In this document: piece after piece, positions 8,306 to 43,053 of the stretch
Layout of the letters: every line of letters begins with the position of its first letter
Position numbering within the stretch: position 1 is the stretch's first letter
Assembly (NCBI GenBank): GCA_902798205.1
Contig: CADBVV010000001.1
Location: forward strand, 69,621 to 133,620
Length of the DNA stretch: 64,000 nucleotides
Source: an uncultured Pseudomonadota bacterium
Lineage (GTDB): Bacteria; Pseudomonadota; Alphaproteobacteria; Rs-D84
Direction of reading: 5' to 3'
The notes under the pieces: generated by a model
Told to the model about the DNA's origin: nothing
The model's database searches: none
Seen by the model: only the letters and a program-made list of their open reading frames with translations
Made by a program: the position numbers and the translations under genes

Positions 8306-8381
8306 GGATGCATAGCTCAGTTGGTAGAGCAACTGACTCTTAATCAGTGGGTCCAGGGTTCGAGTCCCTGTGCGTCCACCA
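8306..8381 (+). tRNA. tRNA-Lys (anticodon CUU), CCA encoded
   Basis: GGATGCATAGCTCAGTTGGTAGAGCAACTGACTCTTAATCAGTGGGTCCAGGGTTCGAGTCCCTGTGCGTCCACCA folds as a cloverleaf. The anticodon loop is CTCTTAA and the T-loop is GTTCGAGTC. Confidence 0.93.
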
Positions 8382-8389
8382 GGATAATT

Positions 8390-8418
8390 AACCACCGCAA
8401 GGTGGTTTTTGTTTTTTT
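8390..8418 (+). terminator. Rho-independent terminator after tRNA-Lys
   Basis: Stem aaccacc/ggtggtt with loop gcaa, followed by a long T-run. Confidence 0.65.
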
Positions 8419-8483
8419 GCAAAAAAAATCATAAACTGTATATTTTTTTTGATTTTAGGTTTTTTTTCATTATAATAGTAAAC

Positions 8484-9776
8484 ATGTCAAAAAAATTATT
8501 ATTATTTCTTATAGCCTTGGCTTTACCGATGGTTTCGGTTGCTGGGACGCAAAATAGCCCTAAAACAAATGTTGTTGTATCACCGTATGATGACGTGCAA
8601 AATGTTTTAGAAAAAATACCTTTCCCAGAAGATTTGTCTGCAAATATCAAGCAATTGTATTTGTCTGCTCAAATAGAGCGAAAAAAAGGCAATATCAGAG
8701 CGGCCATACGTTTTTACAGAAAAGTTCTGGACAAACGCCCAAGCTTCGTGCGCGCCCGTTTTGAATTGGCTTTGTGTTATATGGCATCAGATCGTTGGGA
8801 TCGTGCTGATTATTATTTACGCTCGGCAATGGCATCTGAAGGTTTACCAAACGATGTGAAACACGTTATGGAAGAATACAGAGCCTTGGTACGCAGAAAC
8901 AAACACTGGGATTTCTGGTTTGAGTTTGGTGATGTACCTAATGTGCGTTCAAGCATTGTTGATAACGATGAATGTATTGGTGGTACATGTGAAAAATTAA
9001 CAGAACTAAAAAACGTATCAGGTGTAAATCTTGCGGCTGGTGCTGATTACGAATTTAAATTGTCAGATAATTGGCGTTGGAAAAACGATGTTGCATTTGA
9101 AACAAATCTGTACAAGGAAAATAAATATAATGATTTAAGTCTTGCCGGTTCAACGGGCCCTCGCTATGTATGGGACGATGGGGACATCTGGTTTGCCGGG
9201 GTTGTAGGCCGCAGTTGGTACAGTCAAAAACCGCTTGGTTGGTCATACGGTGCTAAAATTGATGCCAATTATGATTTAACACGCAGATTATCATCTGGTT
9301 TGATTTTAATGGGCTTGAACAATTCGTACGATGAATATAATGATTTACTTGGTGGACAGACATATACTGCGGTACCACATTTTACGTATTATATTGATTC
9401 TACGAAATACATTGAATTGCTTGGTGAAGTGGGACGCGAAACCGCAAAGATGGATTTTCTTGCTAATTATAACTATGGTATCGGGTTAAGTTTTGGTACG
9501 GAAATGCCTTATGGATTCCTTGTATCTTTAGAACCTTACTTATATTGGGTAGATTATGATGCAGAACGTGAAATTGAAAAAAGCGATAGTACGCGTCAAA
9601 GAATTAAACAAAGAGATTTTATTCAAAAGTGTACTTTGTCTTTAATCAATACTAACATAGAATTGCTTGGTTTTATGCCAGTTTTCAAAGTTACTTATAT
9701 AAATAAAGAATCTAATGTACCAGCCCCAGCATATGATAAATGGGTATTTGGTATAGGCATAAAAAGAAAGTTTTAA
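8484..9776 (+). CDS. Outer-membrane protein with an N-terminal TPR-like region and a C-terminal beta-barrel, DUF560/Slam-like (surface lipoprotein assembly modulator, type XI secretion family)
   Basis: The start was moved to MSKKLLLFLIALALPMVSVAG, which carries a signal peptide. A TPR-like segment (AAIRFYRKVLDKRPSFVRARFELALCYMASDRWDRADYYLRSA) is followed by a strand-rich region ending in GIGIKRKF. The family assignment is from memory of DUF560 architecture only. Confidence 0.5.
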   Translation: MSKKLLLFLIALALPMVSVAGTQNSPKTNVVVSPYDDVQNVLEKIPFPEDLSANIKQLYLSAQIERKKGNIRAAIRFYRKVLDKRPSFVRARFELALCYMASDRWDRADYYLRSAMASEGLPNDVKHVMEEYRALVRRNKHWDFWFEFGDVPNVRSSIVDNDECIGGTCEKLTELKNVSGVNLAAGADYEFKLSDNWRWKNDVAFETNLYKENKYNDLSLAGSTGPRYVWDDGDIWFAGVVGRSWYSQKPLGWSYGAKIDANYDLTRRLSSGLILMGLNNSYDEYNDLLGGQTYTAVPHFTYYIDSTKYIELLGEVGRETAKMDFLANYNYGIGLSFGTEMPYGFLVSLEPYLYWVDYDAEREIEKSDSTRQRIKQRDFIQKCTLSLINTNIELLGFMPVFKVTYINKESNVPAPAYDKWVFGIGIKRKF

Positions 9777-9784
9777 GTTAAAGC

Positions 9785-9811
9785 AAAACCCGCCTAAAAC
9801 GGCGGGTTTTT
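9785..9811. terminator. Bidirectional rho-independent terminator between converging genes
   Basis: Stem cccgcc/ggcggg with loop taaaac, flanked by an A-run and a T-run. Confidence 0.7.
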
Positions 9812-9816
9812 ATTTA

Positions 9817-10212
9817 CCTTTTATTTTTTCAAATACTGCGTTGGGTTGTATGCCTTGGTTCCCTTACGAATTTCAAAATGCAATTGTGGTTGATCAACCT
9901 TGCCTGTTTTGCCGACACGACCAATTTGTGTTCCAACACCAACACGTGCACCACGTTTCACAGACATAGAATCAAGATGTGCATAAATTGTCATCCATCC
10001 ATCACTGTGTTGAATAATTATTAAATTACCCATGCCCTTGACTTCATTACCAGCGTATGCAACAACACCATTTTCTGCTGCTTTGACCGCCGCACCCAAC
10101 GGTGCAGAAATATTGATACCGTCATTAAACAAACCGTTATTTTTTGCACCATATACAGATAAAATCTTGCCCCGCAACGGCCACGAAAACTTTGAACTTG
10201 AACGTGCAACAA
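9817..10212. repeat. Direct repeat copy A (~396 bp) of the nlpD 3' end
   Basis: Aligns base for base with 14030..14425 (constant offset 4213). I counted about 14 mismatches by eye. Confidence 0.92.
9821..10212 (-). pseudogene. Detached M23 (LytM) peptidase domain, a duplicated 3' fragment of nlpD lacking the signal peptide and LysM domains
   Basis: The translation VARSSSKFSWPLRGKIL...HFEIRKGTKAYNPTQYLKK differs at only 2 residues from the last ~130 aa of the 14034..15392 product. The upstream sequence is unrelated to nlpD. Confidence 0.7.
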
Positions 10213-10310
10213 TGTTTATCAATTGTATATTCATTTGGTTTTGTAAATGCATCCGCCAAAATAATATTTGGCATAAATAACAATAATAAAAATGTAAGTA
10301 TGTGTTTCAT
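10213..10310 (-). pseudogene. 5' remnant of a second trypsin-like protease gene (signal peptide plus ~12 aa), joined out of frame to the M23 fragment
   Basis: The reading MKHILTFLLLLFMPNIILADAFTKPNEYTIDK parallels MKRLLTFLLLLVPNVVLADACTNPNEYTIDKR of the 11217..12122 protease. This frame is offset by 1 nt from the M23 frame and stops after ~52 codons. Confidence 0.6.
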
Positions 10311-11213
10311 CTAATAAGAACTTTCTGTGTATGAATAAAACAAATCTCTGTCGCTCGTCATTCCTCTTATTTTTGCCCCAGGAATTTTTGAAGATTTCCA
10401 TTTTTCTATATCTTTAATTTCTATAATTTTGCAACCAAACGCTGGGTTACAATCTTGTTTTTTCTTTGGAACATATTGATACATACCGTCTTTTATATCT
10501 TGATTTAATTGATTTCTCCATTGATGCCATTCCTGATAATTATATACAGATTTAAACACATCCAAAAAAACACTATTGCTAATATTATTTGGATCATCAG
10601 AATCAGATTCTATAGTCAACGACACTTCGTATTCGGCACGAATATTTGTTAAATGATCATCTATGGACACCGATAAATACGGGCTTCCAAAATCTTGAGT
10701 TGTTATTTTATATTCTTCAAAACCATCTGGATACAAACAAGTATGTTTTCGTTCGTCACGTAACATTTTATTTACTTCGTATCTACCATTGTTTTTATTT
10801 TTATATAATTTATGTCCATTACATTGTTCAGAATCCATAATCCCTTCGTCCAACCAATAATATACTTCTCTACCATTTTCATATATTTCATTTTTTATTG
10901 CACGACCAGATTCTGCACTTTTTTGTTCCATTAACCACATAAAGAAATCTTTGTAATCGTTAAAAGTTTTTTCTGCCAGATAGTTGTTGTATTTTACAAC
11001 CTTTTGCACATCTGTATAATCTTTGTAAGATTCCACCAAATCAGGGTCTATTTGCTTCATTCGTTCTTCGATAATAGGCAATTGTTGTTTCATTATTTCG
11101 CTGTATTCCTGTAAATATCCAAATGTAGAATCTTGTTTTACAGCATCATACTTATCACCAAAACAAAATGTTGGTATAATCATTAACAACAAAAATGCAA
11201 ATATTCGTTTCAT
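10311..11213 (-). CDS. Secreted hypothetical protein, family A paralogue 2 (300 aa)
   Basis: Signal peptide MKRIFAFLLLMIIPTFCFG. It shares blocks with the 12124..13071 product (KYNNYLAEKTFN, GIMDSEQCNG, HTCLYPDGFEEY, QDIKDGM, EIKDIEKWKS) and 4 conserved Cys. Confidence 0.8.
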   Translation of the reverse strand: MKRIFAFLLLMIIPTFCFGDKYDAVKQDSTFGYLQEYSEIMKQQLPIIEERMKQIDPDLVESYKDYTDVQKVVKYNNYLAEKTFNDYKDFFMWLMEQKSAESGRAIKNEIYENGREVYYWLDEGIMDSEQCNGHKLYKNKNNGRYEVNKMLRDERKHTCLYPDGFEEYKITTQDFGSPYLSVSIDDHLTNIRAEYEVSLTIESDSDDPNNISNSVFLDVFKSVYNYQEWHQWRNQLNQDIKDGMYQYVPKKKQDCNPAFGCKIIEIKDIEKWKSSKIPGAKIRGMTSDRDLFYSYTESSY

Positions 11214-11216
11214 TGT

Positions 11217-12122
11217 TTATTTTAAATAATTTATAGCACCACCTATTCTAGCATGCACATTTCCGCCTATACCAGCACCACCTCTTGTTACAATACCCAT
11301 CATATTACCTTCATCATCAAAAACACCACCACCAGAGTTTCCACCCCATCCTCTGCAATCTTGTAAACCACCCGTACTAGCAATCTTACAATAAGATACT
11401 TTTAATATTTTATCAGCAAAAATGCTTTTATAATAATTTGTTTCCTGCTCTAACAAATATTTTAAAAAACCAATTGATGCTTCATGAATGAACATTATAC
11501 CATCTTCTTCTATTTCGTATTTGGGCTGTTTCAGATTGTTTTTTTGTAAATAATTAATATATTTTTGTTTAATTTCTTTTATTTCTTGATCACTCATTAT
11601 CTTTAAAGCTCCATATCCGATTAACCTGGCATCATAAGTACGATTATAAGAATAATTTATCAAAGGAATTTTTATATATATACGTTTATTATTTGTAATA
11701 TTTGTAGAAAGAATATTTTTTTGAATATTATCGATAGAATAAATAGCCCAATCACCAGTGACATATTCATTAAGAGATACATCATAATCACCGATTTTTT
11801 TATATCTACCTGTAATTATATCACCATTTTGCGTGATAAATCTTAAATTATCGCCATAAACATTATCTTGATTTACATCCGTACAATGTTTGGCAGTATA
11901 AATACTTAATTCGTCATTTTGCTCTAAAATTACAGTCCCTGTACAATAAATCACATCTTCATTGTCCATTATTCCAACTACAGAAACATATGGTTTTTCT
12001 TTCTTTTGTTCTTCTGTAACATAACAACGTTTATCAATTGTGTATTCATTTGGGTTTGTACACGCATCCGCCAAAACAACATTTGGAACAAGTAACAACA
12101 AAAAAGTCAGTAATCTTTTCAT
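11217..12122 (-). CDS. Secreted trypsin-like (S1/chymotrypsin-fold) serine protease
   Basis: Signal peptide MKRLLTFLLLLVPNVVLA. The candidate triad is His in YTAKHC, Asp in GDWAIY and Ser in GWGGNSGGGVF. An unusually long insert separates the Asp and Ser regions. Confidence 0.72.
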   Translation of the reverse strand: MKRLLTFLLLLVPNVVLADACTNPNEYTIDKRCYVTEEQKKEKPYVSVVGIMDNEDVIYCTGTVILEQNDELSIYTAKHCTDVNQDNVYGDNLRFITQNGDIITGRYKKIGDYDVSLNEYVTGDWAIYSIDNIQKNILSTNITNNKRIYIKIPLINYSYNRTYDARLIGYGALKIMSDQEIKEIKQKYINYLQKNNLKQPKYEIEEDGIMFIHEASIGFLKYLLEQETNYYKSIFADKILKVSYCKIASTGGLQDCRGWGGNSGGGVFDDEGNMMGIVTRGGAGIGGNVHARIGGAINYLK

Positions 12123-12123
12123 T

Positions 12124-13071
12124 TTAATCGATGTTTTCTTCTAATTCATGATGAATTGTATGTCCTGTTGCCAGCTCTTTAACTTTATAGTCTGCCCCCC
12201 AATTACCAGAACGCCATTTTGACATATCTTTAATCTCTGTAAATCGGCAACGGCCATCTAAACAATATCCGTCTTCTTTATATTCTCTCATTCCGTCTTT
12301 TATATCTTGTTGCCAATTGTTTCTTTCTGTTTGGTGTTCGTAATAAGTTGTTTCTTGTGATGAAATATCGAGATAAAAAGCACTTGTTTGGTTTTTAGAA
12401 TCATCCAAATAAGATTCTTTATTTAAAGATATCTTGTATGTTTTATGTGTGTTATTTGCAACAGAATCAATACTTAACAATAATATTTTTGTATTATTAT
12501 GATTTGCACCAGCATTTTCAATTACCAGAGTATAATCTTCAAAACCATCTGGGTAAAGGCAGGTGTGATCACGTTGGTCTTTCAATTGTTTTTCTACTTC
12601 TTCACGGCTATAATCTTTGGCTTTATATGTTCCACCATTACATTGATCGCTGTCCATTATCCCTGCATCTAACCAAATAAAACTTTCTTTGGTAAGATTT
12701 AGATTGCTTCCATCACCATAATTTTTCGTGCGTACTGCTCTATTAGTTTCATGGCCATGTCTATATAAATCTGCTATGAAACGATCTTTATATTCATTAA
12801 ATGTTTTTTCAGCCAAATAATTATTATATTTTACTATTTTTTGAAAAACCGTATCGTCTTTTGATGATCGAACCAATTTAGCACCTGTTCCAAGTGGGTC
12901 ATTAGCTAAACTAGATATTCTGGCTTCTATTATTGGTAATGATTGTTTCATAATATTGTCATATTCTTGAACACCAGAAAAAACAGGATCTTGTTTCATC
13001 TCGTCATAGTTCTTTGCAAAACAAGGTAATGATATGCTTAGCAATAATAAAAATGCATATGCTCGGTTCAT
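12124..13071 (-). CDS. Secreted hypothetical protein, family A paralogue 1 (315 aa)
   Basis: Signal peptide MNRAYAFLLLLSISLPCFA. It is a paralogue of the 10311..11213 product. Its start overlaps the upstream stop by 1 nt (TAATG). Confidence 0.8.
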   Translation of the reverse strand: MNRAYAFLLLLSISLPCFAKNYDEMKQDPVFSGVQEYDNIMKQSLPIIEARISSLANDPLGTGAKLVRSSKDDTVFQKIVKYNNYLAEKTFNEYKDRFIADLYRHGHETNRAVRTKNYGDGSNLNLTKESFIWLDAGIMDSDQCNGGTYKAKDYSREEVEKQLKDQRDHTCLYPDGFEDYTLVIENAGANHNNTKILLLSIDSVANNTHKTYKISLNKESYLDDSKNQTSAFYLDISSQETTYYEHQTERNNWQQDIKDGMREYKEDGYCLDGRCRFTEIKDMSKWRSGNWGADYKVKELATGHTIHHELEENID

Positions 13072-14021
13072 TATTGCAAAACCTCTTCACAGCGGCCGGC
13101 TTGTTCCATCAATTTTTTAGTTAATGTAATAAGTGATATATTTAAACCTGTTTCAACGGCACCGGTTGCAACATTTGCACCAGCCATTACATTGGCTGTT
13201 GTATTTAACGCATGTTCTTTTTTCTTTTCTTCTTCGGTTAATCTAACTTTATTAGCCGCATCCATATATTTATCAGAATTCGCCGCCGCACTGGTTCCGA
13301 CCCCAACAACACCAATCGCAGTCCCCGCAATTGATGTACCCATTACACCCTTCATTCGTTTTTCGATTTTTTCAATATCTTTTATATTAATTTGATTACA
13401 CCATGTACGAACATTGCTTAATTTTTTAACAACAGTGTGTTGATTTGGGTTGATACCGGCCTTTCTTAATTCATTTTCCATATCCGGTATTGATTTCACA
13501 ATTTCATTACATGCAGATATGTGTTGAACCAATTCTGATTGATTTGTGTTTAACCCCGACATAATGGCAGATGCCAGATTAGTTCCGATTGTTCCGGCCA
13601 TTAAACCTGTACGCCAATTACCCAGTTTTTTTGATTTATCTATCTTTTGTTGTAATTCGGCAATTTGCGCCATTGGTTGTAAAACGTTCATTAAAAACTG
13701 TTCATCACTCATTGCGTTTACGCCTTCGGCGCTGCAACCACCAGATGCACACATTTTAGCAATTAATTCTTCGATTTCTTGTTCTTCTTGGGACTTCTTT
13801 ATTCCGGCAACCAATGCACCGCCGGCCGCAACCGTCCCAACCGCAGTTACCGCCGTATTCGCCTTTGATATATTGGCGACACGCCCTATTTCGTCAGAAA
13901 TTCCAGAACATGCAATACGTGTTGCTTCAAAAACTTGTTCTGCATTTTTTACAACATCAATATCATCTGCAGATGCCATAAATGGCATAAAAATCAGAAT
14001 CATTGTCAATATTCGTTTCAT
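13071..14021 (-). CDS. Secreted protein with four Gly/Ala-rich glycine-zipper-like hydrophobic segments (316 aa)
   Basis: Signal peptide MKRILTMILIFMPFMASA. The four segments are TAVTAVGTVAAGGALVAGI, GLMAGTIGTNLASAIMSGL, GVMGTSIAGTAIGVVGVGTSAAA and NVMAGANVATGAVETGL, separated by charged helical stretches. Several Cys are present. Confidence 0.8.
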   Translation of the reverse strand: MKRILTMILIFMPFMASADDIDVVKNAEQVFEATRIACSGISDEIGRVANISKANTAVTAVGTVAAGGALVAGIKKSQEEQEIEELIAKMCASGGCSAEGVNAMSDEQFLMNVLQPMAQIAELQQKIDKSKKLGNWRTGLMAGTIGTNLASAIMSGLNTNQSELVQHISACNEIVKSIPDMENELRKAGINPNQHTVVKKLSNVRTWCNQINIKDIEKIEKRMKGVMGTSIAGTAIGVVGVGTSAAANSDKYMDAANKVRLTEEEKKKEHALNTTANVMAGANVATGAVETGLNISLITLTKKLMEQAGRCEEVLQ

Positions 14022-14029
14022 TTCTAAAG

Positions 14030-14425
14030 CCTTTTATTTTTTCAAATACTGCGTTGGGTTGTATGCCTTGGTTCCCTTGCGAATTTCAAAGTGCAATTGT
14101 GGTTGATCAACTTTGCCTGTTTTGCCGACACGACCAATTTGTGTTCCAACACCAACGCGTGCACCACGTTTCACAGACATAGAATCAAGATGTGCATAAA
14201 TTGTCATCCATCCATCACTGTGTTGAATAATTATTAAATTACCCATGCCTTTGACTTCATTACCGGCATATGCAACAACACCATTTTCCGCTGCTTTGAC
14301 CGCGGCACCAAACGGTGCAGAAATATTGATACCATCATTAAACAAACCATTATTTTTTGCACCATATGCAGATAAAATCTTGCCCCGCAACGGCCACGAA
14401 AACTTTGAACTTGAACGCGCAACAA
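14030..14425. repeat. Direct repeat copy B (~396 bp), the 3' end of intact nlpD
   Basis: See copy A at 9817..10212. Confidence 0.92.
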
Positions 14426-15392
14426 CCTTTGGTAATTGTTGTTTTGGGTTTGAAGATATCTTTTGTTTTTCTGTATTTTTCGCGACAGTTTTTGTATCCG
14501 CTGGCTTTGCGGTCGTTTTGTTTTCCGCTGTGTTTTTCGCAGGTGTAATTTTTACAACTGTTGTTTTCTCAGTTTTTATTTCCGACACAGACGCTGTTTT
14601 AACATTGTTTAACTTTGGCACTTTGATTTTTTGGCCAACAGACAAAACAAACGGACTGGATATTTTATTCATAACCGCCAAATCATTAACTGGTATTTCA
14701 TATTGACGCGACAAAGAATACAATGTATCGCCCTTTTGCACCGTGATTTCTTGCAAATCTACACGTTTGGTCCCTGTTGGTTTTATTGTTTCTTTGGCCA
14801 CAACTTTTTCTTTGGCAATAACATTTGGCACTTCCTGTTTTACAGTTGCACTTCGTTTTGTTGTTAATTTTTGACCGATCGATAAAGTATACGGTTCGTG
14901 TAAATTATTTACATCGGCAAATTCAGAAACCGTCATACCGTTTTTACGTGCCAACGAATAAACAGTGTCCCCTTTTGCAACAATTATAACATCACCACCG
15001 GCTGGTTCTTTCTTTGGTGCCGGTGTATCAATAATTGTATTTCCGCCATACATTGGAACAATTAAATAATCTTGTTCTGTTTGTTGTTCTGTGATTTTTG
15101 TTTCTTCGTTTTCTGGGACCAAAACGTAATCATCAACACTGGCATATAAAACATAATCATTTATATTTGACGAACCGTATAATTCAGGCGAAGCATACAC
15201 ACCATAATCAGTCACCGCAGAATTATAGATTTCAGGCTGGGTATTCGGATCCGCCAACAATGCCGGATATCTGTCTTCGATAAACATACCAATACTATCA
15301 GGAATAGAAGCAATTTTTGGTTGCAAATCACATGCGCCCAAGACAAGCGCACACAAAACAGACACTTTGAAAAAAGTTTTATACATTCTCAC
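14034..15392 (-). CDS. nlpD: LysM-domain M23 murein hydrolase activator lipoprotein (NlpD-like)
   Basis: Lipobox VLGAC, two LysM repeats (GDTVYSLARKNGMTVSEF and GDTLYSLSRQYEIPVNDL), a Thr/Lys-rich linker and a C-terminal M23 domain (HSDGWMTIYAHL, HFEIRK). Confidence 0.85.
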   Translation of the reverse strand: MRMYKTFFKVSVLCALVLGACDLQPKIASIPDSIGMFIEDRYPALLADPNTQPEIYNSAVTDYGVYASPELYGSSNINDYVLYASVDDYVLVPENEETKITEQQTEQDYLIVPMYGGNTIIDTPAPKKEPAGGDVIIVAKGDTVYSLARKNGMTVSEFADVNNLHEPYTLSIGQKLTTKRSATVKQEVPNVIAKEKVVAKETIKPTGTKRVDLQEITVQKGDTLYSLSRQYEIPVNDLAVMNKISSPFVLSVGQKIKVPKLNNVKTASVSEIKTEKTTVVKITPAKNTAENKTTAKPADTKTVAKNTEKQKISSNPKQQLPKVVARSSSKFSWPLRGKILSAYGAKNNGLFNDGINISAPFGAAVKAAENGVVAYAGNEVKGMGNLIIIQHSDGWMTIYAHLDSMSVKRGARVGVGTQIGRVGKTGKVDQPQLHFEIRKGTKAYNPTQYLKK

Positions 15393-40024: not shown

Positions 40025-41890
40025 TTATAAACCAAATGTGATACCCGCACGGAAAGCCCACTGTTCGTGTCCACCATACGAAGCACCAGCATTAAGCAAT
40101 ACATGATCATTGACATAATGAAATGCACCGGCTGCAATACCAAATTTATCTTGGTAAGAACCTGTCCCCACAGATATTTGTGTATCCCCACAATCACGAG
40201 CATTTGGAACCAAAGCAGACATTGCGGTCACTGCGGCCAAACCACTGTGGGCTTCACGTTTGATTGTTTGCATTTCGTTTTCTACACGGTGCAAATTTCC
40301 ATCCAACGCACGCACTGCACCAGACAAATCTGTTTGTCCGACTAAATACGCAGTATTATCAAATGCCATATCACCAATCAAATTGCCAGTTGTTTGGAAT
40401 GCACGGGCAAAATCTTCGTTTTTAACAGATTCATTTAATGCCTTATTTAATGAAACAATGTTACGGTTACCAACAACAGCGTCAATCAAATCAAGATTTT
40501 CATTAACTGATTTATCTGACTTGATGTTGCCATTTGTCCCATTTACATTTGCACCGATTGCTTTATCCAAAGCACTTACTGCAACTGCAACACTTGAGCC
40601 TGCCGCAACTTGGTTAGTACTTGTATATGTACGATTTCCAATTGCATTATCCAAAGCAACCAAATGTTGTTCAACGGTTGTTCCATCGGCCAAATTAGAA
40701 TTAGCCTTTAAATCGGAATTTCCAGCTTTCAAACCATGGATTTGACCCAATGTTGCATCAATGTTATTCAATGCCGAAACAATTGTTGTTGGTTGTGTTC
40801 CATTACCATTGGACAGTGCATTACCAACAGAACCTGTACCAGCATTCAATGTTGATACATCACCAATTGTCGCATTTACTGCATCTATATTTTGATTCAC
40901 AGAATTTGTGGTTGCAACATTGTTATATGTATTCGTCACATTTGCACCGATTGCGGTATCTAATGCCTTGATATTATCATTAACAGTATTTGTTGCAGAT
41001 ATTGCACCTGTGTCACGCGATTGTACAGAATCAATTGCACCACCAATATTAGATGCAACCTGAGATACAGCGGCCGTCAAATCTGTATTAGCTGTGCTTT
41101 GTCCATACGCAACTGTTGTATCAGCATACTGACGGCTACCAATTGCATTATCCAAGGCTTCCAAATCAGCAACAACGTCTGAGCCAGTTAAGTTTTTGGT
41201 TGTGTCAATATTGGCGTAATCACCAATCACTGTATCGATCGCATCTAAAGATGTTGTGATACTGTCGCCATCAGAGATGTTATAACCATTTGTGTAGGTT
41301 CTTTCACCAATAGCAGCATCCAAAGCATCAAGGTTAGCATTAACTGTATTTGTTGCAACAACATTACCATTTGTTGCAGAAACAACACCACCAATATTAC
41401 TTGCAACCTGAGACACTGCATCAACAACGGTTGTATTATCTGCAATTTCATCATAATTTACAGTATTTGTGTTACTGTATGCAGTACGGTCACCGATTGC
41501 AGAATCCAATGATGATATTGCAACATTTATTGTACCATTTGATACATTTTTCGCATCGGTTGCCGCTGTAAACGTTGCATTTTCAGCACTTGTTAATACA
41601 GTTGCTGTTGTTGCTAATACAGATGCATCACCAGATATTTGTGCGGTTACTCCATTATCAATGCCAGAAACCGTATTACCAGCCATTGTTAAAGAATCAA
41701 CTGTTGTATCACCAGCTGTCAATCCACCCAATGTTGTGTCACCTGTTACAGTTAAATCTCCACCAACTGTCGCATCATTTGTAATACCCAAAGAAGCTAA
41801 TGTTGTATCACCAGCTGTCAATCCATCCAATGTTGTGTCACCTGTTACAGTTAAATCTCCACCAACTGTCGCATCATTTGTAATACCCAA
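40025..41890 (-). CDS. Trimeric autotransporter adhesin, C-terminal portion (stalk plus YadA-type membrane anchor); probably the 3' part of one frameshifted gene
   Basis: The C-terminus GLAAVTAMSAL...QISVGTGSYQDKFGIAAGAFHY...AGITFGL is a YadA-like anchor. The ORF 'start' is TTG, which is the Leu codon of an internal repeat (LGITNDATVGG). Confidence 0.78.
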   Translation of the reverse strand: MGITNDATVGGDLTVTGDTTLDGLTAGDTTLASLGITNDATVGGDLTVTGDTTLGGLTAGDTTVDSLTMAGNTVSGIDNGVTAQISGDASVLATTATVLTSAENATFTAATDAKNVSNGTINVAISSLDSAIGDRTAYSNTNTVNYDEIADNTTVVDAVSQVASNIGGVVSATNGNVVATNTVNANLDALDAAIGERTYTNGYNISDGDSITTSLDAIDTVIGDYANIDTTKNLTGSDVVADLEALDNAIGSRQYADTTVAYGQSTANTDLTAAVSQVASNIGGAIDSVQSRDTGAISATNTVNDNIKALDTAIGANVTNTYNNVATTNSVNQNIDAVNATIGDVSTLNAGTGSVGNALSNGNGTQPTTIVSALNNIDATLGQIHGLKAGNSDLKANSNLADGTTVEQHLVALDNAIGNRTYTSTNQVAAGSSVAVAVSALDKAIGANVNGTNGNIKSDKSVNENLDLIDAVVGNRNIVSLNKALNESVKNEDFARAFQTTGNLIGDMAFDNTAYLVGQTDLSGAVRALDGNLHRVENEMQTIKREAHSGLAAVTAMSALVPNARDCGDTQISVGTGSYQDKFGIAAGAFHYVNDHVLLNAGASYGGHEQWAFRAGITFGL

Positions 41891-41899
41891 AGAAGCTAA
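41702..41899. repeat. 99-bp in-frame tandem repeat (2 near-identical copies; a third diverged copy follows at ~41900-42018)
   Basis: Each unit encodes LASLGITNDATVGGDLTVTGDTTLDGLTAGDTT. The third copy carries the 2-bp insertion. Confidence 0.85.
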
Positions 41900-43053
41900 T
41901 GTTGTGTCACCTGCTCTGTCAATCCATCCAATGTTGTGTCGCCTGTTACGGTTAAAGTTCCTCCGACATTCGAATTCCCTGTGACATTCGCATCGCCTGT
42001 AACACCCAAAGAAGCTAATGTCGTGTTTCCTGACACATTTAAATTACCTGTGACATCTGAATTACCTGTAACTTCTGAATTACCATTTACGGTTAACCCT
42101 GTTGTCGAAACAGCCCCTGTAAATGCGGCACCAGCCAAATCTGCTTTTTTGGCTAATTCTGTATTTACATATGTTTGATCTGCTTTTGTTGTTGCATAGG
42201 CATCATACGTTGCTACTTTTGTTGAAGTAATACCAGAATTAACAGCAGACATTTGATCCGCATTCAATGCATCTTGTTTTCCGGCTATCGTTGTTGCATA
42301 GGCATCATACGTTGCTACTTTTGTTGAAGTAATACCAGAATTAACAGCATTCATTTGATCTGTATTCAATGCATCTTGTTTTCCAGATATCGTTGTTGCA
42401 TAGGCATCATACGCGGCTACTTTTGTTGAAGTAATACCAGAATTAACAGCAGACATTTGACCTGCATTCAATGCATCTTGTTTTCCAGATATCGTTGTTG
42501 CATAGGCATCATACGCGGCTACTTTTGTTGAAGTAATACCAGAATTAACAGCAGACATTTGATCTGCATTCAATGCATCTTGTTTTCCGGCTATCGTTGT
42601 TGCATAGGCATCATACGCGGCTACTTTTGTTGAAGTAATACCAGAATTAACAGCATTCATTTGATCTGTATTTAATGCATCTTGTTTTCCAGATATCGTT
42701 GTTGCATAGGCATCATAAGTAGCCATTTTGGATGCTGTAATACCAGAATTAACAGCAGACATTTGTGTATCATCCAACTTATTTTGTTTGTTACCCAACA
42801 AATCGTTCACTTCGTTTTTTGTGTATGTGTTAGAAGCATCTGCTTTTGCATCCAATGCTGTATTCACATTATCTAATAAACCATCAACTTCGCTTTGTGT
42901 ATATGTGGTATCCGTATTATATACTGTATAACTTGTACCATCTGTAATTGTAACAACACCGTTACCATCCTGAGACACAGTCACTTCTGCAAGTGCGACA
43001 TTTACAACTGTCATCATCGCAATCGCTGATGTAAAAATAGAAATTTTTTTCAT
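41896..43053 (-). CDS. Trimeric autotransporter adhesin, N-terminal portion (signal peptide plus repeats)
   Basis: Signal peptide MKKISIFTSAIAMMTVVNVALA and ~5.7 copies of a 34-aa repeat. The ORF ends ...GDTTLDGLTEQVTQH* inside the repeat that continues in the next ORF. Confidence 0.78.
   Translation of the reverse strand: MKKISIFTSAIAMMTVVNVALAEVTVSQDGNGVVTITDGTSYTVYNTDTTYTQSEVDGLLDNVNTALDAKADASNTYTKNEVNDLLGNKQNKLDDTQMSAVNSGITASKMATYDAYATTISGKQDALNTDQMNAVNSGITSTKVAAYDAYATTIAGKQDALNADQMSAVNSGITSTKVAAYDAYATTISGKQDALNAGQMSAVNSGITSTKVAAYDAYATTISGKQDALNTDQMNAVNSGITSTKVATYDAYATTIAGKQDALNADQMSAVNSGITSTKVATYDAYATTKADQTYVNTELAKKADLAGAAFTGAVSTTGLTVNGNSEVTGNSDVTGNLNVSGNTTLASLGVTGDANVTGNSNVGGTLTVTGDTTLDGLTEQVTQH
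42186..42766. repeat. 102-bp in-frame tandem repeat, ~5.7 near-identical copies
   Basis: Each unit encodes QM(S/N)AVNSGITSTKVA(A/T)YDAYATTI(S/A)GKQDALN(A/T)(D/G). Confidence 0.88.

What the first reader, a model, noticed from the sequence alone, without database searches (positions are those of the whole stretch)
10311..14021. Four-gene cassette of secreted proteins (glycine-zipper protein, two Cys-containing paralogues, S1-like protease) with no characterised counterpart I recognise
Four co-directional genes are packed with spacings of -1, 1 and 3 nt, and the first starts 12 nt after the nlpD stop, so they look co-transcribed. All four products have clear N-terminal signal peptides. The order is a 316-aa protein with four Gly/Ala-rich glycine-zipper-like segments, a 315-aa family A protein, a trypsin-fold protease (His TAKHC, Asp GDWAIY, Ser GNSGGG), and a 300-aa family A paralogue. 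This is followed by the remnant of a second protease gene, so an A-plus-protease module appears to be iterated. Glycine-zipper segments occur in membrane-inserting toxins, bacteriocins and surface antigens, and secreted proteases often mature or activate such proteins. The set could therefore be an exported toxin/bacteriocin, a host-interaction system or an envelope-remodelling system. The region also looks more AT-rich than its flanks, but I did not compute this.
Basis: partly seen in the sequence, partly recalled or inferred. Interest (0 to 1): 0.8.

Follow-up and report, generated by a model that had tools for sequence, protein, structure and literature searches.

The report
Conserved exported gene heading swappable secreted-protein array
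A real four-gene operon of exported proteins in an uncultured, genome-reduced rumen alphaproteobacterium turns out to be one copy of a widespread, unannotated module in which a highly conserved exported helical protein is followed by strain-variable secreted proteins (mostly trypsin-like proteases); its function is still unknown.

Summary
On the minus strand, nlpD is followed at 12, -1, 1 and 3 nt by G (316 aa), A1 (315 aa), an S1-fold protease P (301 aa) and A2 (300 aa). The first 103 nt of a second P gene come next.

The conserved unit is not "A plus protease". It is G plus whichever exported gene follows it. G belongs to a large unannotated family (444 clusters at 50% identity) seen almost only in Candidatus Enterousia/Rs-D84 gut MAGs, often several copies per genome.

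- Of 88 G genes, 76 have a co-directional next gene within 45 nt, and 61 of these overlap G.
- 73 of the 76 partners have signal-peptide-like N-termini. P is the partner in 40 cases and A in only 5.
- G is about as conserved as TatC and LolA, whereas the array downstream differs even between conspecific strains.
- The recombination breakpoints lie in signal-peptide codons.

G and A match nothing in Pfam, NCBIfam or PDB.

My best reading, which is inferred, is a constant membrane-associating platform protein with exchangeable exported enzymes or binders for partner-cell interaction. Function is unproven.

The parts
14034..15392 (-). nlpD (LysM x2 + M23 peptidase lipoprotein), the gene immediately upstream. 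G starts 12 nt after its stop. The likely true start is the ATG at 15386.
   Evidence: Pfam Peptidase_M23 4e-30 and LysM 4e-29. The tatB-tatC-nlpD-G order recurs in L008, L010, L013, L014, L018, L026, L035, L069, L091, L094 and L095.
13071..14021 (-). G: a 316-aa exported, predicted all-helical protein. It has four uncharged segments rich in small residues (52-75, 134-160, 225-250, 273-298) and four family-invariant Cys (C38, C171, C208, C311). It is the constant first gene of the module.
   Evidence: 706 and 1946 homologues in two searches, all unnamed or 'hypothetical'. 444 clusters at 50% identity. Invariant residues, composition. AF2 pLDDT is 48.8.
12124..13071 (-). A1: a 315-aa exported protein of the rare family A. 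The predicted fold is an N-terminal helical region plus a beta-rich domain, with no known structural relative.
   Evidence: Only 13 homologues in 5.8e9 proteins. AF2 pLDDT 78.4 and pTM 0.76. Best Foldseek E is 0.33 against PDB and 0.09 against BFVD.
11217..12122 (-). P: a 301-aa exported chymotrypsin-fold (S1) serine protease. It has the triad H79/D124/S263, an N-terminal Cys loop (C21...YTIDKRC33YVT), and a stretch of roughly 70 aa between the Asp and Ser regions that is not aligned to the S1 structures.
   Evidence: Profile hits to S1 structures, E=1e-12. Triad conservation. The window protein itself is below the Pfam cut-offs (22.2 vs 27.6; 17.8 vs 20.6).
10311..11213 (-). A2: a 300-aa exported paralogue of A1.
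   Evidence: 45% identity to A1. A 79%-identical orthologue lies directly after G in L009.
10208..10310 (-). P': the first ~34 codons of a second P-family gene. It starts right after the A2 stop and is truncated at a microhomology junction.
   Evidence: 86% identity to the 5' end of P (D3). Translation. Three-way alignment of the junction.
9817..10212 (-). nlpD': a second, 5'-truncated copy of the last 396 nt of nlpD including the stop. It is out of frame with P' and is a recombination scar.
   Evidence: 96.5% identity with 14 mismatches, of which 12 are synonymous and 2 nonsynonymous. Homology ends 5 nt after the stop codon.
9785..9810 (.). Bidirectional hairpin terminator shared by the array transcript and the convergent Slam gene. 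It is the only strong terminator downstream of nlpD on the minus strand.
   Evidence: 10-bp stem with 6 GC pairs and a T-run on both strands (I10, 73).
8306..9776 (+). Context: tRNA-Lys (8306-8381) followed by a Slam (SlipAM) outer-membrane gene (8484-9776), convergent with the array. This block marks the distal border of the variable region.
   Evidence: ARAGORN. Pfam SlipAM 1.4e-22. tRNA-Lys borders the arrays in L010, L013, L035, L069 and L095.

Best explanation
The region is one instance of a lineage-specific module of genome-reduced gut Alphaproteobacteria (Candidatus Enterousia / order Rs-D84). The module is a constant exported protein, G, followed by an exchangeable set of exported proteins.

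**Shown**
- G is as conserved as neighbouring housekeeping genes and occurs in several copies per genome.
- G is almost always the first gene. Its stop usually overlaps the start of a signal-peptide-bearing gene.
- The downstream genes come from a changing repertoire. This includes S1-fold proteases (P), family A, small Cys-rich families and 900-1800-aa proteins.
- The downstream genes differ even between conspecific strains.
- Exchange breakpoints sit in the conserved signal-peptide-coding 5' ends.
- In this window the distal end of the array is a scar. A truncated second protease gene is joined by microhomology to an allelic nlpD 3' fragment. This is what one homologous crossover plus one illegitimate join between two haplotypes would leave.

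**Inferred**
- nlpD, G, A1, P and A2 are transcribed together and exported by Sec.
- G is oxidised to a disulfide-stapled helical/coiled-coil protein. Its four uncharged, small-residue-rich segments associate with or insert into a membrane after export, either the cell's own outer membrane or a partner cell's membrane.
- G then serves as the invariant platform (anchor or pore) for the variable proteins.
- P is an active endoprotease. A1 and A2 are binding or accessory proteins of a new fold.
- The variable part is under diversifying selection because it meets a partner cell, host or competitor.

I do not know which of anchor, pore or export device G is.
For: **Linkage.** 76 of 88 G genes have a co-directional next gene within 45 nt. 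61 overlap G, 40 of them by the 4-nt ATGA overlap. 73 of the 76 partners have signal-peptide-like N-termini. Partners are P 40, f3 12, f13 8, A 5 and others.

**Conservation contrast in syntenic loci.** G is 67-78% identical, against TatC 64-85% and LolA 72-89%. The best P is only 25-41% identical.

**Strain-level replacement.** L094 is 96.5% identical to the window over 11 kb, up to 28 nt into A1. It then carries different A-family genes. L016 and L001 share G-A1 and lose homology 135 and 38 nt into P. A 31-nt similarity recurs at all five gene starts (D2).

**Scar.** The microhomology junction is shown. The two nlpD copies differ by 12 synonymous and 2 nonsynonymous changes, so they diverged as functional alleles.

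**Multi-copy and dispersed.** There are five loci in MAG JAZNGD01. Upstream neighbours are unrelated housekeeping genes. One G-A pair lies in a resolvase-flanked island.

**G features.**
- A conserved AXA-type cleavage site.
- Four invariant Cys.
- Uncharged small-residue segments with Hessa sums of +2.8 to +7.5, too polar for Sec-inserted TM helices.
- A coiled-coil insert of variable length between segments 1 and 2 in 520-640-aa relatives.

**P.** It is S1-fold with a conserved triad.

**Lifestyle.** Rs-D84 genomes are usually under 1 Mb (range 0.67-1.6 Mb), lack respiration and lack recognised sugar, amino-acid and peptide transporters. They are thought to be partner-dependent (PMC12306168; PMC13196213).
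Against: - There is no direct evidence that G touches a membrane or binds its partner.
- The AF2 model of G is unusable (pLDDT 48.8).
- Its top Foldseek hits (AhlB, ClyA, MakB) are not significant (E 0.3-0.9, TM 0.13).
- GxxxG motifs are not enriched.
- About 12 of 88 G genes have no close co-directional partner, so G may work alone.
- G's housekeeping-like conservation and its conserved position after nlpD also fit an envelope role.
- No route across the outer membrane was identified.
- No toxin, immunity or adhesin domain was recognised in any partner.
- Signal peptides were judged by rule, not by a trained predictor.
Confidence: 0.45

Rival explanations
1. Envelope housekeeping. G is a periplasmic or outer-membrane-associated structural or regulatory protein that works with NlpD-type cell-wall factors. 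The P proteases are periplasmic quality-control or processing enzymes. The module maintains the producer's own envelope.
For: - G starts 12 nt after nlpD with no terminator in between.
- tatB-tatC-nlpD-G synteny holds in at least 11 loci.
- Another G copy follows an LppC/LpoA-like lipoprotein gene.
- G evolves like TatC and LolA.
- HtrA/DegQ proteases are among the PDB hits of P.
Against: - Other G copies follow acyl-ACP thioesterase, ArgRS, CvpA and GNAT genes, or sit in a resolvase-flanked island.
- There are several copies per small (0.67-1.6 Mb) genome.
- Arrays differ between conspecific strains.
- Partners include unrelated Cys-rich families and 900-1800-aa proteins.
- P has no PDZ domain. 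Its best PDB matches are secreted proteases rather than HtrA.
Confidence: 0.17
2. Bacteriocin-like or pore-forming toxin locus. G is a membrane-damaging toxin, analogous in function to glycine-zipper toxins such as Caulobacter CdzC/D or to ClyA-type alpha-pore formers. The downstream proteins are co-toxins, activators or periplasmic immunity proteins.
For: - G has uncharged, small-residue-rich segments flanked by charged helices and is predicted all-helical.
- A constant gene followed by strain-variable downstream genes, with an HFIR-type scar, resembles effector/immunity loci (PMC5361080).
- A glycine-zipper contact-dependent bacteriocin exists in Alphaproteobacteria (PMC5380434).
- P is followed in 12 loci by a ~120-aa exported helical protein (f5) that could be an inhibitor.
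Against: - There is no hit to any Gly-zipper, colicin or ClyA model.
- GxxxG is not enriched.
- No type I secretion genes or small TM immunity gene lie next to G.
- A toxin would be expected to be the variable part, yet G is the most conserved gene of the locus.
- f5 is absent from this window.
Confidence: 0.15
3. Dedicated export device. G is an outer-membrane translocation or release factor for the protein encoded next to it, a two-gene secretion route in a lineage with few recognised secretion systems.
For: - G comes first, its stop overlaps the partner's start, and every partner has its own Sec signal.
- Partner class partly follows G subfamily. f13 occurs only with G copies under 42% identical to the window's, and A only with those at 60% or more.
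- The genome is tiny (PMC12306168).
Against: - The same G (at least 96% identical) precedes different partners in conspecific strains.
- Long arrays have one G for up to five cargo genes.
- About 14% of G genes have no partner.
- G has no beta-barrel or known secretin features.
- The rest of the genome was not examined for other secretion systems.
Confidence: 0.1
4. An iterated 'family A plus protease' module in which the protease matures or activates the glycine-zipper protein or the A proteins.
For: - The window order is A1-P-A2-P'.
- L016 has G-A-P and L013 has G-P-A-P.
Against: - A occurs without P in L004 (G-A-A-A-A), L001, L009, L094 and L092/L093.
- P occurs without A in more than 30 loci.
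- A is the partner of G in only 5 of 76 cases.
Confidence: 0.06

Closest known systems
Staphylococcal S1B secreted proteases (Spl operon proteases, exfoliative toxins, V8/glutamyl endopeptidases) and Streptomyces trypsins
   Same: - P shares the chymotrypsin fold and the His-Asp-Ser triad.
- These proteins are among the best profile matches (1p3c, 2as9, 2w7s SplA, 5mm8 SplE, 1agj ETA).
- From general knowledge, the spl genes also form a tandem array of secreted paralogues.
   Different: - Identity is very low. The window protein is below the Pfam gathering scores.
- P has a conserved N-terminal Cys-loop motif YTIDKRCYVT and roughly 70 aa not aligned to the S1 structures.
- P is coupled to an unrelated conserved gene, G.
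- Substrate and activity are unknown.
Effector/immunity arrays downstream of conserved T6SS, Rhs or CDI genes, diversified by homologous or homology-facilitated illegitimate recombination
   Same: - A constant upstream gene provides the homology anchor, and the variable downstream genes are displaced.
- Truncated or orphan remnants accumulate at the distal end (PMC5361080).
- Here G and nlpD are constant, the array differs between conspecific strains, and a truncated P' plus nlpD' scar remains.
   Different: - No T6SS, Rhs, CDI, PAAR or VgrG genes are present.
- There are no recognisable toxin or immunity domains.
- Every protein has its own Sec signal peptide.
- Variation is by whole genes, not by C-terminal toxin tips.
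Caulobacter Cdz contact-dependent bacteriocin (CdzC/CdzD glycine-zipper proteins)
   Same: Both are alphaproteobacterial exported proteins with Gly/Ala-rich uncharged stretches. In the case of Cdz these act at the cell surface (PMC5380434).
   Different: [quoted passage not shown] Neither is present here.
- G is Sec-dependent.
- G is not enriched in GxxxG.
- G shows no detectable similarity to any Gly-zipper Pfam model.
ClyA-family alpha-pore-forming toxins (ClyA/HlyE, AhlB, MakB)
   Same: - Both are elongated all-helical proteins of about 300-360 aa.
- The hydrophobic, small-residue-rich segments are thought to insert only after export.
- These toxins are the nominal top Foldseek hits of the G model.
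   Different: - The hits are not significant (E 0.27-0.9, TM about 0.13) and the model is of low confidence (pLDDT 48.8).
- There is no sequence or profile similarity.
- G has four such segments rather than one head region.

Membership tests
Peptidase family S1 (chymotrypsin fold) - for P | Catalytic His, Asp and Ser in that order, in the TAxHC / D / GxSGG contexts | tested here: met
   H79 (TAKHC), D124 (GDWAIY) and S263 (GNSGGG). H79 is invariant, and D124 and S263 are at least 90% conserved in 33 members.
Peptidase family S1 (chymotrypsin fold) - for P | Significant sequence or profile similarity to established S1 members | tested here: met
   The family profile against PDB gives glutamyl endopeptidase 1p3c at E=1.2e-12, trypsins, Spl proteases and exfoliative toxins. 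458 sequences score E<=1.
Peptidase family S1 (chymotrypsin fold) - for P | Score above the Pfam Trypsin or Trypsin_2 gathering threshold | tested here: inconclusive
   The window protein is below threshold (22.2 < 27.6; 17.8 < 20.6). Longer family members pass (L064 30.9 > 20.6; L061 27.8 > 27.6).
Peptidase family S1 (chymotrypsin fold) - for P | Proteolytic activity | not testable with these tools
   Needs enzyme assays with wild type and an S263A mutant.
Glycine-zipper membrane proteins (Pfam Gly-zipper_Omp/OmpA/YMGG, Rick_17kDa_Anti; Cdz-like bacteriocins) - for G | Match to a Gly-zipper family model | tested here: not met
   No such family appears among the hits of 32 G members even at E<=1.
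Glycine-zipper membrane proteins (Pfam Gly-zipper_Omp/OmpA/YMGG, Rick_17kDa_Anti; Cdz-like bacteriocins) - for G | Repeated GxxxG / GxxxGxxxG motifs beyond what composition gives | tested here: not met
   GxxxG: 2 observed against 2.0 expected. Zipper-like triplets: 3 against 1.6, and 23% of shuffles reach this.
Glycine-zipper membrane proteins (Pfam Gly-zipper_Omp/OmpA/YMGG, Rick_17kDa_Anti; Cdz-like bacteriocins) - for G | For Cdz: adjacent type I secretion genes and a small TM immunity gene | tested here: not met
   Neighbours are nlpD, A1, P and A2 in the window and housekeeping genes elsewhere.
ClyA-family alpha-pore-forming toxins - for G | Sequence or structural similarity to ClyA, Hbl, Nhe, Ahl or Mak proteins | tested here: inconclusive
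   There is no profile hit in PDB. Foldseek's top hits are AhlB, ClyA and MakB, but at E 0.27-0.9 and TM 0.13 on a model with pLDDT 48.8.
Polymorphic toxin systems (Rhs, CDI, MafB or T6SS effector-immunity type) | Recognisable trafficking domain, variable C-terminal toxin domain and adjacent cognate immunity gene | tested here: not met
   No toxin, immunity or trafficking domain was found in G, A, P or eight other partner families. Variation is by whole-gene replacement.
Slam-dependent surface lipoproteins | Lipobox Cys, and a conserved gene pairing with the adjacent Slam | tested here: not met
   None of the four proteins has a lipobox, and the Cys in the A signal peptides is not conserved. 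Slam adjacency is absent in most related loci. Elsewhere Slam is paired with a separate Gly-linker lipoprotein, f41.
Integrative genomic island (integrase plus att repeats) | Site-specific recombinase gene and short att direct repeats at the borders | tested here: not met
   There is no recombinase between nlpD and tRNA-Lys. The flanking repeat is a 396-bp diverged gene fragment, not an att site. The window holds no second copy of the tRNA-Lys 3' end. A related G-A pair does lie between two serine-recombinase genes in L001.

The most novel reading that the evidence does not exclude
The G family is a previously unrecognised kind of exported alpha-helical membrane device. It would be a constant anchor, pore or release factor that is translationally coupled to interchangeable Sec-exported enzymes. 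Genome-reduced, transporter-poor Rs-D84 bacteria would use it to attach to, permeabilise or digest a partner cell. This would be a new two-gene delivery or secretion system, diversified by cassette exchange at signal-peptide codons.
Probability: 0.17. Interest if true: 0.85.

Novelty: new variant of a known kind. Interest (0 to 1): 0.6.

Why it matters
Rs-D84/Candidatus Enterousia bacteria are common in ruminant and other animal guts. Their genomes are mostly under 1 Mb, and they lack respiration and recognisable nutrient transporters. They are assumed to live off a partner, but nobody knows how (PMC12306168, PMC13196213).

A conserved, multi-copy, completely unannotated exported protein family heads strain-variable arrays of secreted proteases and novel-fold proteins. 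That takes up a noticeable part of such a small genome and makes it an obvious candidate for the interaction machinery.

The work also gives concrete targets. Family G has 444 clusters at 50% identity, and family A has a new fold. It further gives a clear example of cassette exchange whose breakpoints lie in signal-peptide codons.

If G proves to be a new anchoring, pore-forming or export device, it would add a new kind of protein-delivery mechanism. If it proves to be a periplasmic envelope factor, the finding would be of local interest only.

Tried and rejected
- **Family libraries.** Pfam, NCBIfam, PHROGs and PADLOC scans of G, A1, P and A2 gave nothing above threshold apart from weak trypsin hits for P. 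Scanning all 32 G and 15 A members gave only coiled-coil or compositional noise, such as sub-threshold P5CR_dimer in 16 of 32 G members.\n- **PDB profile searches.** Searches for G and A found nothing.\n- **Structure of G.** AF2 with a 32-sequence alignment spanning 33-100% identity failed (pLDDT 48.8). I ran Foldseek on it anyway and discard the AhlB/ClyA/MakB ranking as non-significant.\n- **Structure of A1.** Foldseek against PDB and BFVD gave no match. The weak START/Ups1/PagP-like hits are below any threshold, so I rejected a lipid-binding assignment.\n- **Internal duplication in G.** hhalign of the N half against the C half gave only 14 columns at probability 2%.\n- **G as a polytopic inner-membrane protein.** Rejected as unlikely. 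The segments have Hessa sums of +2.8 to +7.5 and the charge distribution does not follow the positive-inside rule consistently.\n- **Slam substrates.** Rejected (see membership test).\n- **tRNA-Lys island.** The window holds no attR copy.\n- **Empty-site haplotype.** I searched for nlpD followed directly by the terminator and Slam. An exact-pattern scan of JGI metagenomes found nothing. A Slam-based scan returned one 2.3-kb contig without the relevant flank.\n- **Shared motif RC[YVL][VL][TK].** It occurs in P, f3, f162, f188 and A1-type proteins against 1.4% of background ORFs. The motif was defined post hoc, so I do not rely on it.\n- **Domains in partners and long G variants.** Pfam scans of the 900-1800-aa f13 partners and of long G variants revealed no informative domain.

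Full report
**1. What is there**

The cassette lies on the minus strand.

| Gene | Coordinates | Size | Spacing to the previous gene |
|---|---|---|---|
| nlpD | 14034-15392 | 452 aa | - |
| G | 13071-14021 | 316 aa | 12-nt gap |
| A1 | 12124-13071 | 315 aa | 1-nt overlap |
| P | 11217-12122 | 301 aa | 1-nt gap |
| A2 | 10311-11213 | 300 aa | 3-nt gap |

- nlpD has two LysM domains and an M23 domain.
- No terminator-like hairpin lies on this strand between nlpD and 9810. A strong bidirectional hairpin sits at 9785-9810. Co-transcription of nlpD-G-A1-P-A2 is therefore plausible, but it is not shown.
- Each product has a basic n-region, a hydrophobic core and a small -3/-1 site: ASA|DD, CFA|KN, VLA|DA and CFG|DK. 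The -1 Ala is conserved across G homologues. I had no trained signal-peptide predictor.
- A1 and A2 are 45% identical.
- GC is low for A1, P and A2 (0.321, 0.291, 0.301 against a window mean of 0.357). G (0.389) matches its flanks.

**2. The distal end is a recombination scar**

- Directly after the A2 stop, an ATG at 10310 opens the first 34 codons of a second P-family gene. Positions 10208-10290 are 86% identical to the 5' end of P, and the translation is.
- At about 10205-10226 this stub joins a second copy of the last 396 nt of nlpD (9817-10212 against 14030-14425). Identity is 96.5% with 14 mismatches and no gaps.
- The join lies in a stretch where P (ACAATTGATAAACGTTGTT) and nlpD (ACAATTACCAAAGGTTGTTGC) happen to resemble each other.
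- Homology between the two nlpD copies stops 5 nt after the stop codon. The full copy continues into G, and the fragment continues into the terminator.
- Of the 14 differences, 12 are synonymous and 2 are not. The two copies therefore diverged while both were functional genes, that is, in different genomes, and were later brought together.
- The simplest history is one homologous crossover plus one microhomology-mediated illegitimate join. The two conspecific haplotypes would be one with nlpD-G-array and one with nlpD-terminator-Slam. This is homology-facilitated illegitimate recombination, as proposed for the displacement of T6SS effector modules (PMC5361080).
- Which haplotype was donor cannot be told, and I did not find the second haplotype.
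- The arrangement is identical in two other public assemblies. These may come from the same raw data.

**3. Who carries it**

- The nearest loci come from MAGs labelled Candidatus Enterousia sp. or uncultured Alphaproteobacteria. The sources are rumen and gut samples of cattle, sheep, goat, yak, deer, buffalo and horse.
- In loci with the same tatC-nlpD-G gene order, RecJ is 73-88% identical to the window's.
- NCBI places Candidatus Enterousia in Alphaproteobacteria incertae sedis. GTDB places it in order Rs-D84 (PMC12306168).
- These organisms mostly have genomes under 1 Mb. They have no TCA cycle or respiratory chain and no recognised sugar, amino-acid or peptide transporters. They are presumed to be partner-dependent.

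**4. The proteins**

*P*
- The family profile matches S1 proteases of known structure. Hits include glutamyl endopeptidase 1p3c (E=1.2e-12), Streptomyces trypsins, SplA, SplE, exfoliative toxins and HtrA/DegQ.
- H79 is invariant, and D124 and S263 are at least 90% conserved.
- The window protein itself is below the Pfam cut-offs. Longer relatives pass.
- P is a divergent but probably active S1-fold serine protease. It has a conserved N-terminal Cys loop (YTIDKRCYVT) and roughly 70 aa between the Asp and Ser regions that are not aligned to the S1 structures.

*A*
- Only 13 homologues exist among 5.8 billion proteins. All come from metagenomes and none is named.
- AlphaFold2 gives a usable model (pLDDT 78.4, pTM 0.76). 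It has a helical N-terminal third and a beta-rich domain.
- Nothing in PDB or BFVD matches it (best E 0.33 and 0.09).

*G*
- The two homologue searches returned 706 and 1946 proteins. The family forms 444 clusters at 50% identity.
- The members I could place come almost entirely from this lineage, and no listed hit carries a name other than 'hypothetical protein'.
- There is no Pfam, NCBIfam or PDB relative.
- Four Cys are invariant: C38, C171, C208 and C311.
- Four segments of about 25 residues are 57% G/A/S/T and 5% charged. They are too polar to be Sec-inserted TM helices, with Hessa sums of +2.8 to +7.5. They are not enriched in GxxxG.
- Longer relatives (520-640 aa) carry a long coiled coil between segments 1 and 2.
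- AF2 predicts only helices, with low confidence (pLDDT 48.8). The Foldseek ranking (AhlB, ClyA, MakB) is not significant.

**5. The conserved unit**

I called ORFs in 86 related loci and clustered them.

- Of 88 G genes in non-redundant loci, 76 are followed on the same strand within 45 nt. 61 overlap G, and 40 of those have the 4-nt ATGA overlap.
- 73 of the 76 partners have signal-peptide-like N-termini.
- Partner families are:

| Partner family | Cases |
|---|---|
| P | 40 |
| f3 (~230-260 aa, Cys-rich) | 12 |
| f13 (880-1800 aa) | 8 |
| A | 5 |
| f135, f162, f188 | 2 each |

- Arrays range from G alone to G-P-A-P-f5-P.
- A occurs without P in L004 (G-A-A-A-A), L001, L009 and L094. It occurs without G in L092/L093.
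- The 'A + protease' repeat of this window is therefore local. The general rule is 'G + exported partner(s)'.
- G copies sit after unrelated housekeeping genes: nlpD, an LppC/LpoA-like gene, cvpA, an acyl-ACP thioesterase gene and argS. One G-A pair lies in an island with two serine recombinases and an AAA_21/RloB pair.
- Single MAGs hold up to five G loci.

**6. Constant G, variable array**

- In loci that share the tatC-nlpD-G order, G is 67-78% identical to the window's G. That is similar to TatC (64-85%) and LolA (72-89%). The best P is only 25-41% identical.
- Conspecific contig L094 is 96.5% identical to the window over 11 kb through nlpD and G. It loses homology 28 nt into A1 and then encodes different A-family proteins.
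- L016 shares G-A1 at 92% and diverges 135 nt into P. L001 shares G-A1 at 89% and diverges 38 nt into P, where a family-A gene carries a P-like signal peptide.
- A 31-nt similarity recurs at all five gene starts in the window (D2).
- Cassette exchange therefore uses the conserved signal-peptide-coding 5' ends as recombination anchors.

**7. Interpretation**

*Shown:* a constant exported gene is coupled to exchangeable exported genes. The module is multi-copy, lineage-restricted and strain-variable, and this window carries a recombination scar.

*Inferred:*
- G is a disulfide-stapled helical protein whose uncharged segments engage a membrane after export. It acts as the common platform (anchor, pore or release factor) for variable enzymes and binders.
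- Those variable proteins face a partner cell, host or competitor. I give this reading 0.45.
- G cannot be a specific inhibitor or immunity protein, because the same G precedes unrelated partners.

*Rivals:*
- An envelope-maintenance role linked to nlpD (0.17).
- A bacteriocin-like or pore-forming toxin locus (0.15).
- A dedicated export device (0.10).

**8. Comparison with known systems**

- P is a member of the S1 fold, with a family-level match and a conserved triad. It is a new, very divergent subfamily.
- G is not a member of any glycine-zipper family, of the Cdz system (PMC5380434) or, on present evidence, of the ClyA family.
- The locus behaves like effector arrays behind conserved T6SS, Rhs or CDI genes in how it diversifies. 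It has none of their defining genes or domains.
- It is not a Slam-substrate locus. It is also not a classical integrase/att island.

**9. Verdict**

- The protein families G and A are new. The organisation is a new variant of the constant-gene-plus-variable-cassette theme. The function is unknown.
- Interest is 0.6. That is high for people working on genome-reduced symbionts and secretion. It is limited because the mechanism rests on inference and the only structure prediction for the key protein failed.

Noticed in passing
window 40025-43053 (-), repeats at 41691-42891: A trimeric-autotransporter-like gene (YadA_anchor, E=2e-9) is split into two ORFs of 621 and 385 aa, separated by 5 nt. It contains 102-nt and 99-nt tandem repeats with up to 6 copies. 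It may be a frameshifted or phase-variable adhesin, or an assembly problem in the repeats.
   Followed up: partly
window 8306-9776 (+): tRNA-Lys(ctt) lies directly upstream of a Slam (SlipAM) gene that has no adjacent lipoprotein substrate. The same tRNA-Lys-Slam unit is seen in L013 and L090. In the window it is inverted relative to L013. In L026 Slam follows a Gly-linker lipoprotein gene (f41), which L010 also carries, but the first 26 kb of the window has none. tRNA-Lys marks the far border of the G arrays in five related loci, twice as a duplicated copy.
   Followed up: partly
L001 5338-18738 (same in L002): A G-A-A' cassette is 84% (G) and 97% (A1) identical to the window's. It lies in an island with an AAA_21/RloB pair, a small resolvase, an HTH gene, several exported or lipoprotein genes and a 564-aa serine recombinase. 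The module can therefore ride on a mobile element.
   Followed up: partly
L059, L076, L079-L086 (gene after G): G copies under 42% identical to the window's are followed by 880-1800-aa exported proteins (family f13). These have no Pfam domain. Their C-terminal region in L059 contains an 'LGFHGTD...GYGIAGDY' stretch that reminded me of H-Y-E ADP-ribosyltransferases. I did not test this.
   Followed up: no
P, f3, f162, f188 and A1-type proteins in the related loci; window P residues 30-36: A short motif RC[YVL][VL][TK] recurs in otherwise unrelated partner families. It is near the N-terminus in P and in the C-terminal third of the others. It occurs in 1.4% of background ORFs. The motif was defined post hoc, so its weight is low.
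   Followed up: partly
L013, L015, L018, L024, L025, L028, L043, L044, L047, L060, L066: A ~100-190-aa exported, predicted coiled-coil protein (family f5) directly follows P genes in 12 cases. It could be an inhibitor or partner of the protease. It is absent from the window.
   Followed up: no
L008, L010, L013, L014, L016, L018, L091, L095 (gene convergent with the array): A ~185-aa lipoprotein with a His/Lys-rich N-terminal region (family f26) closes the nlpD-linked arrays on the opposite strand in most relatives. In the window it is missing, and the nlpD' fragment and Slam take its place.
   Followed up: no
P0369, P0372, P0390, P0399 (G relatives of 520-640 aa): Some G-family members carry a 200-350-aa coiled-coil insert between the first and second small-residue segments. 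The family therefore tolerates a stalk of variable length at that point.
   Followed up: partly
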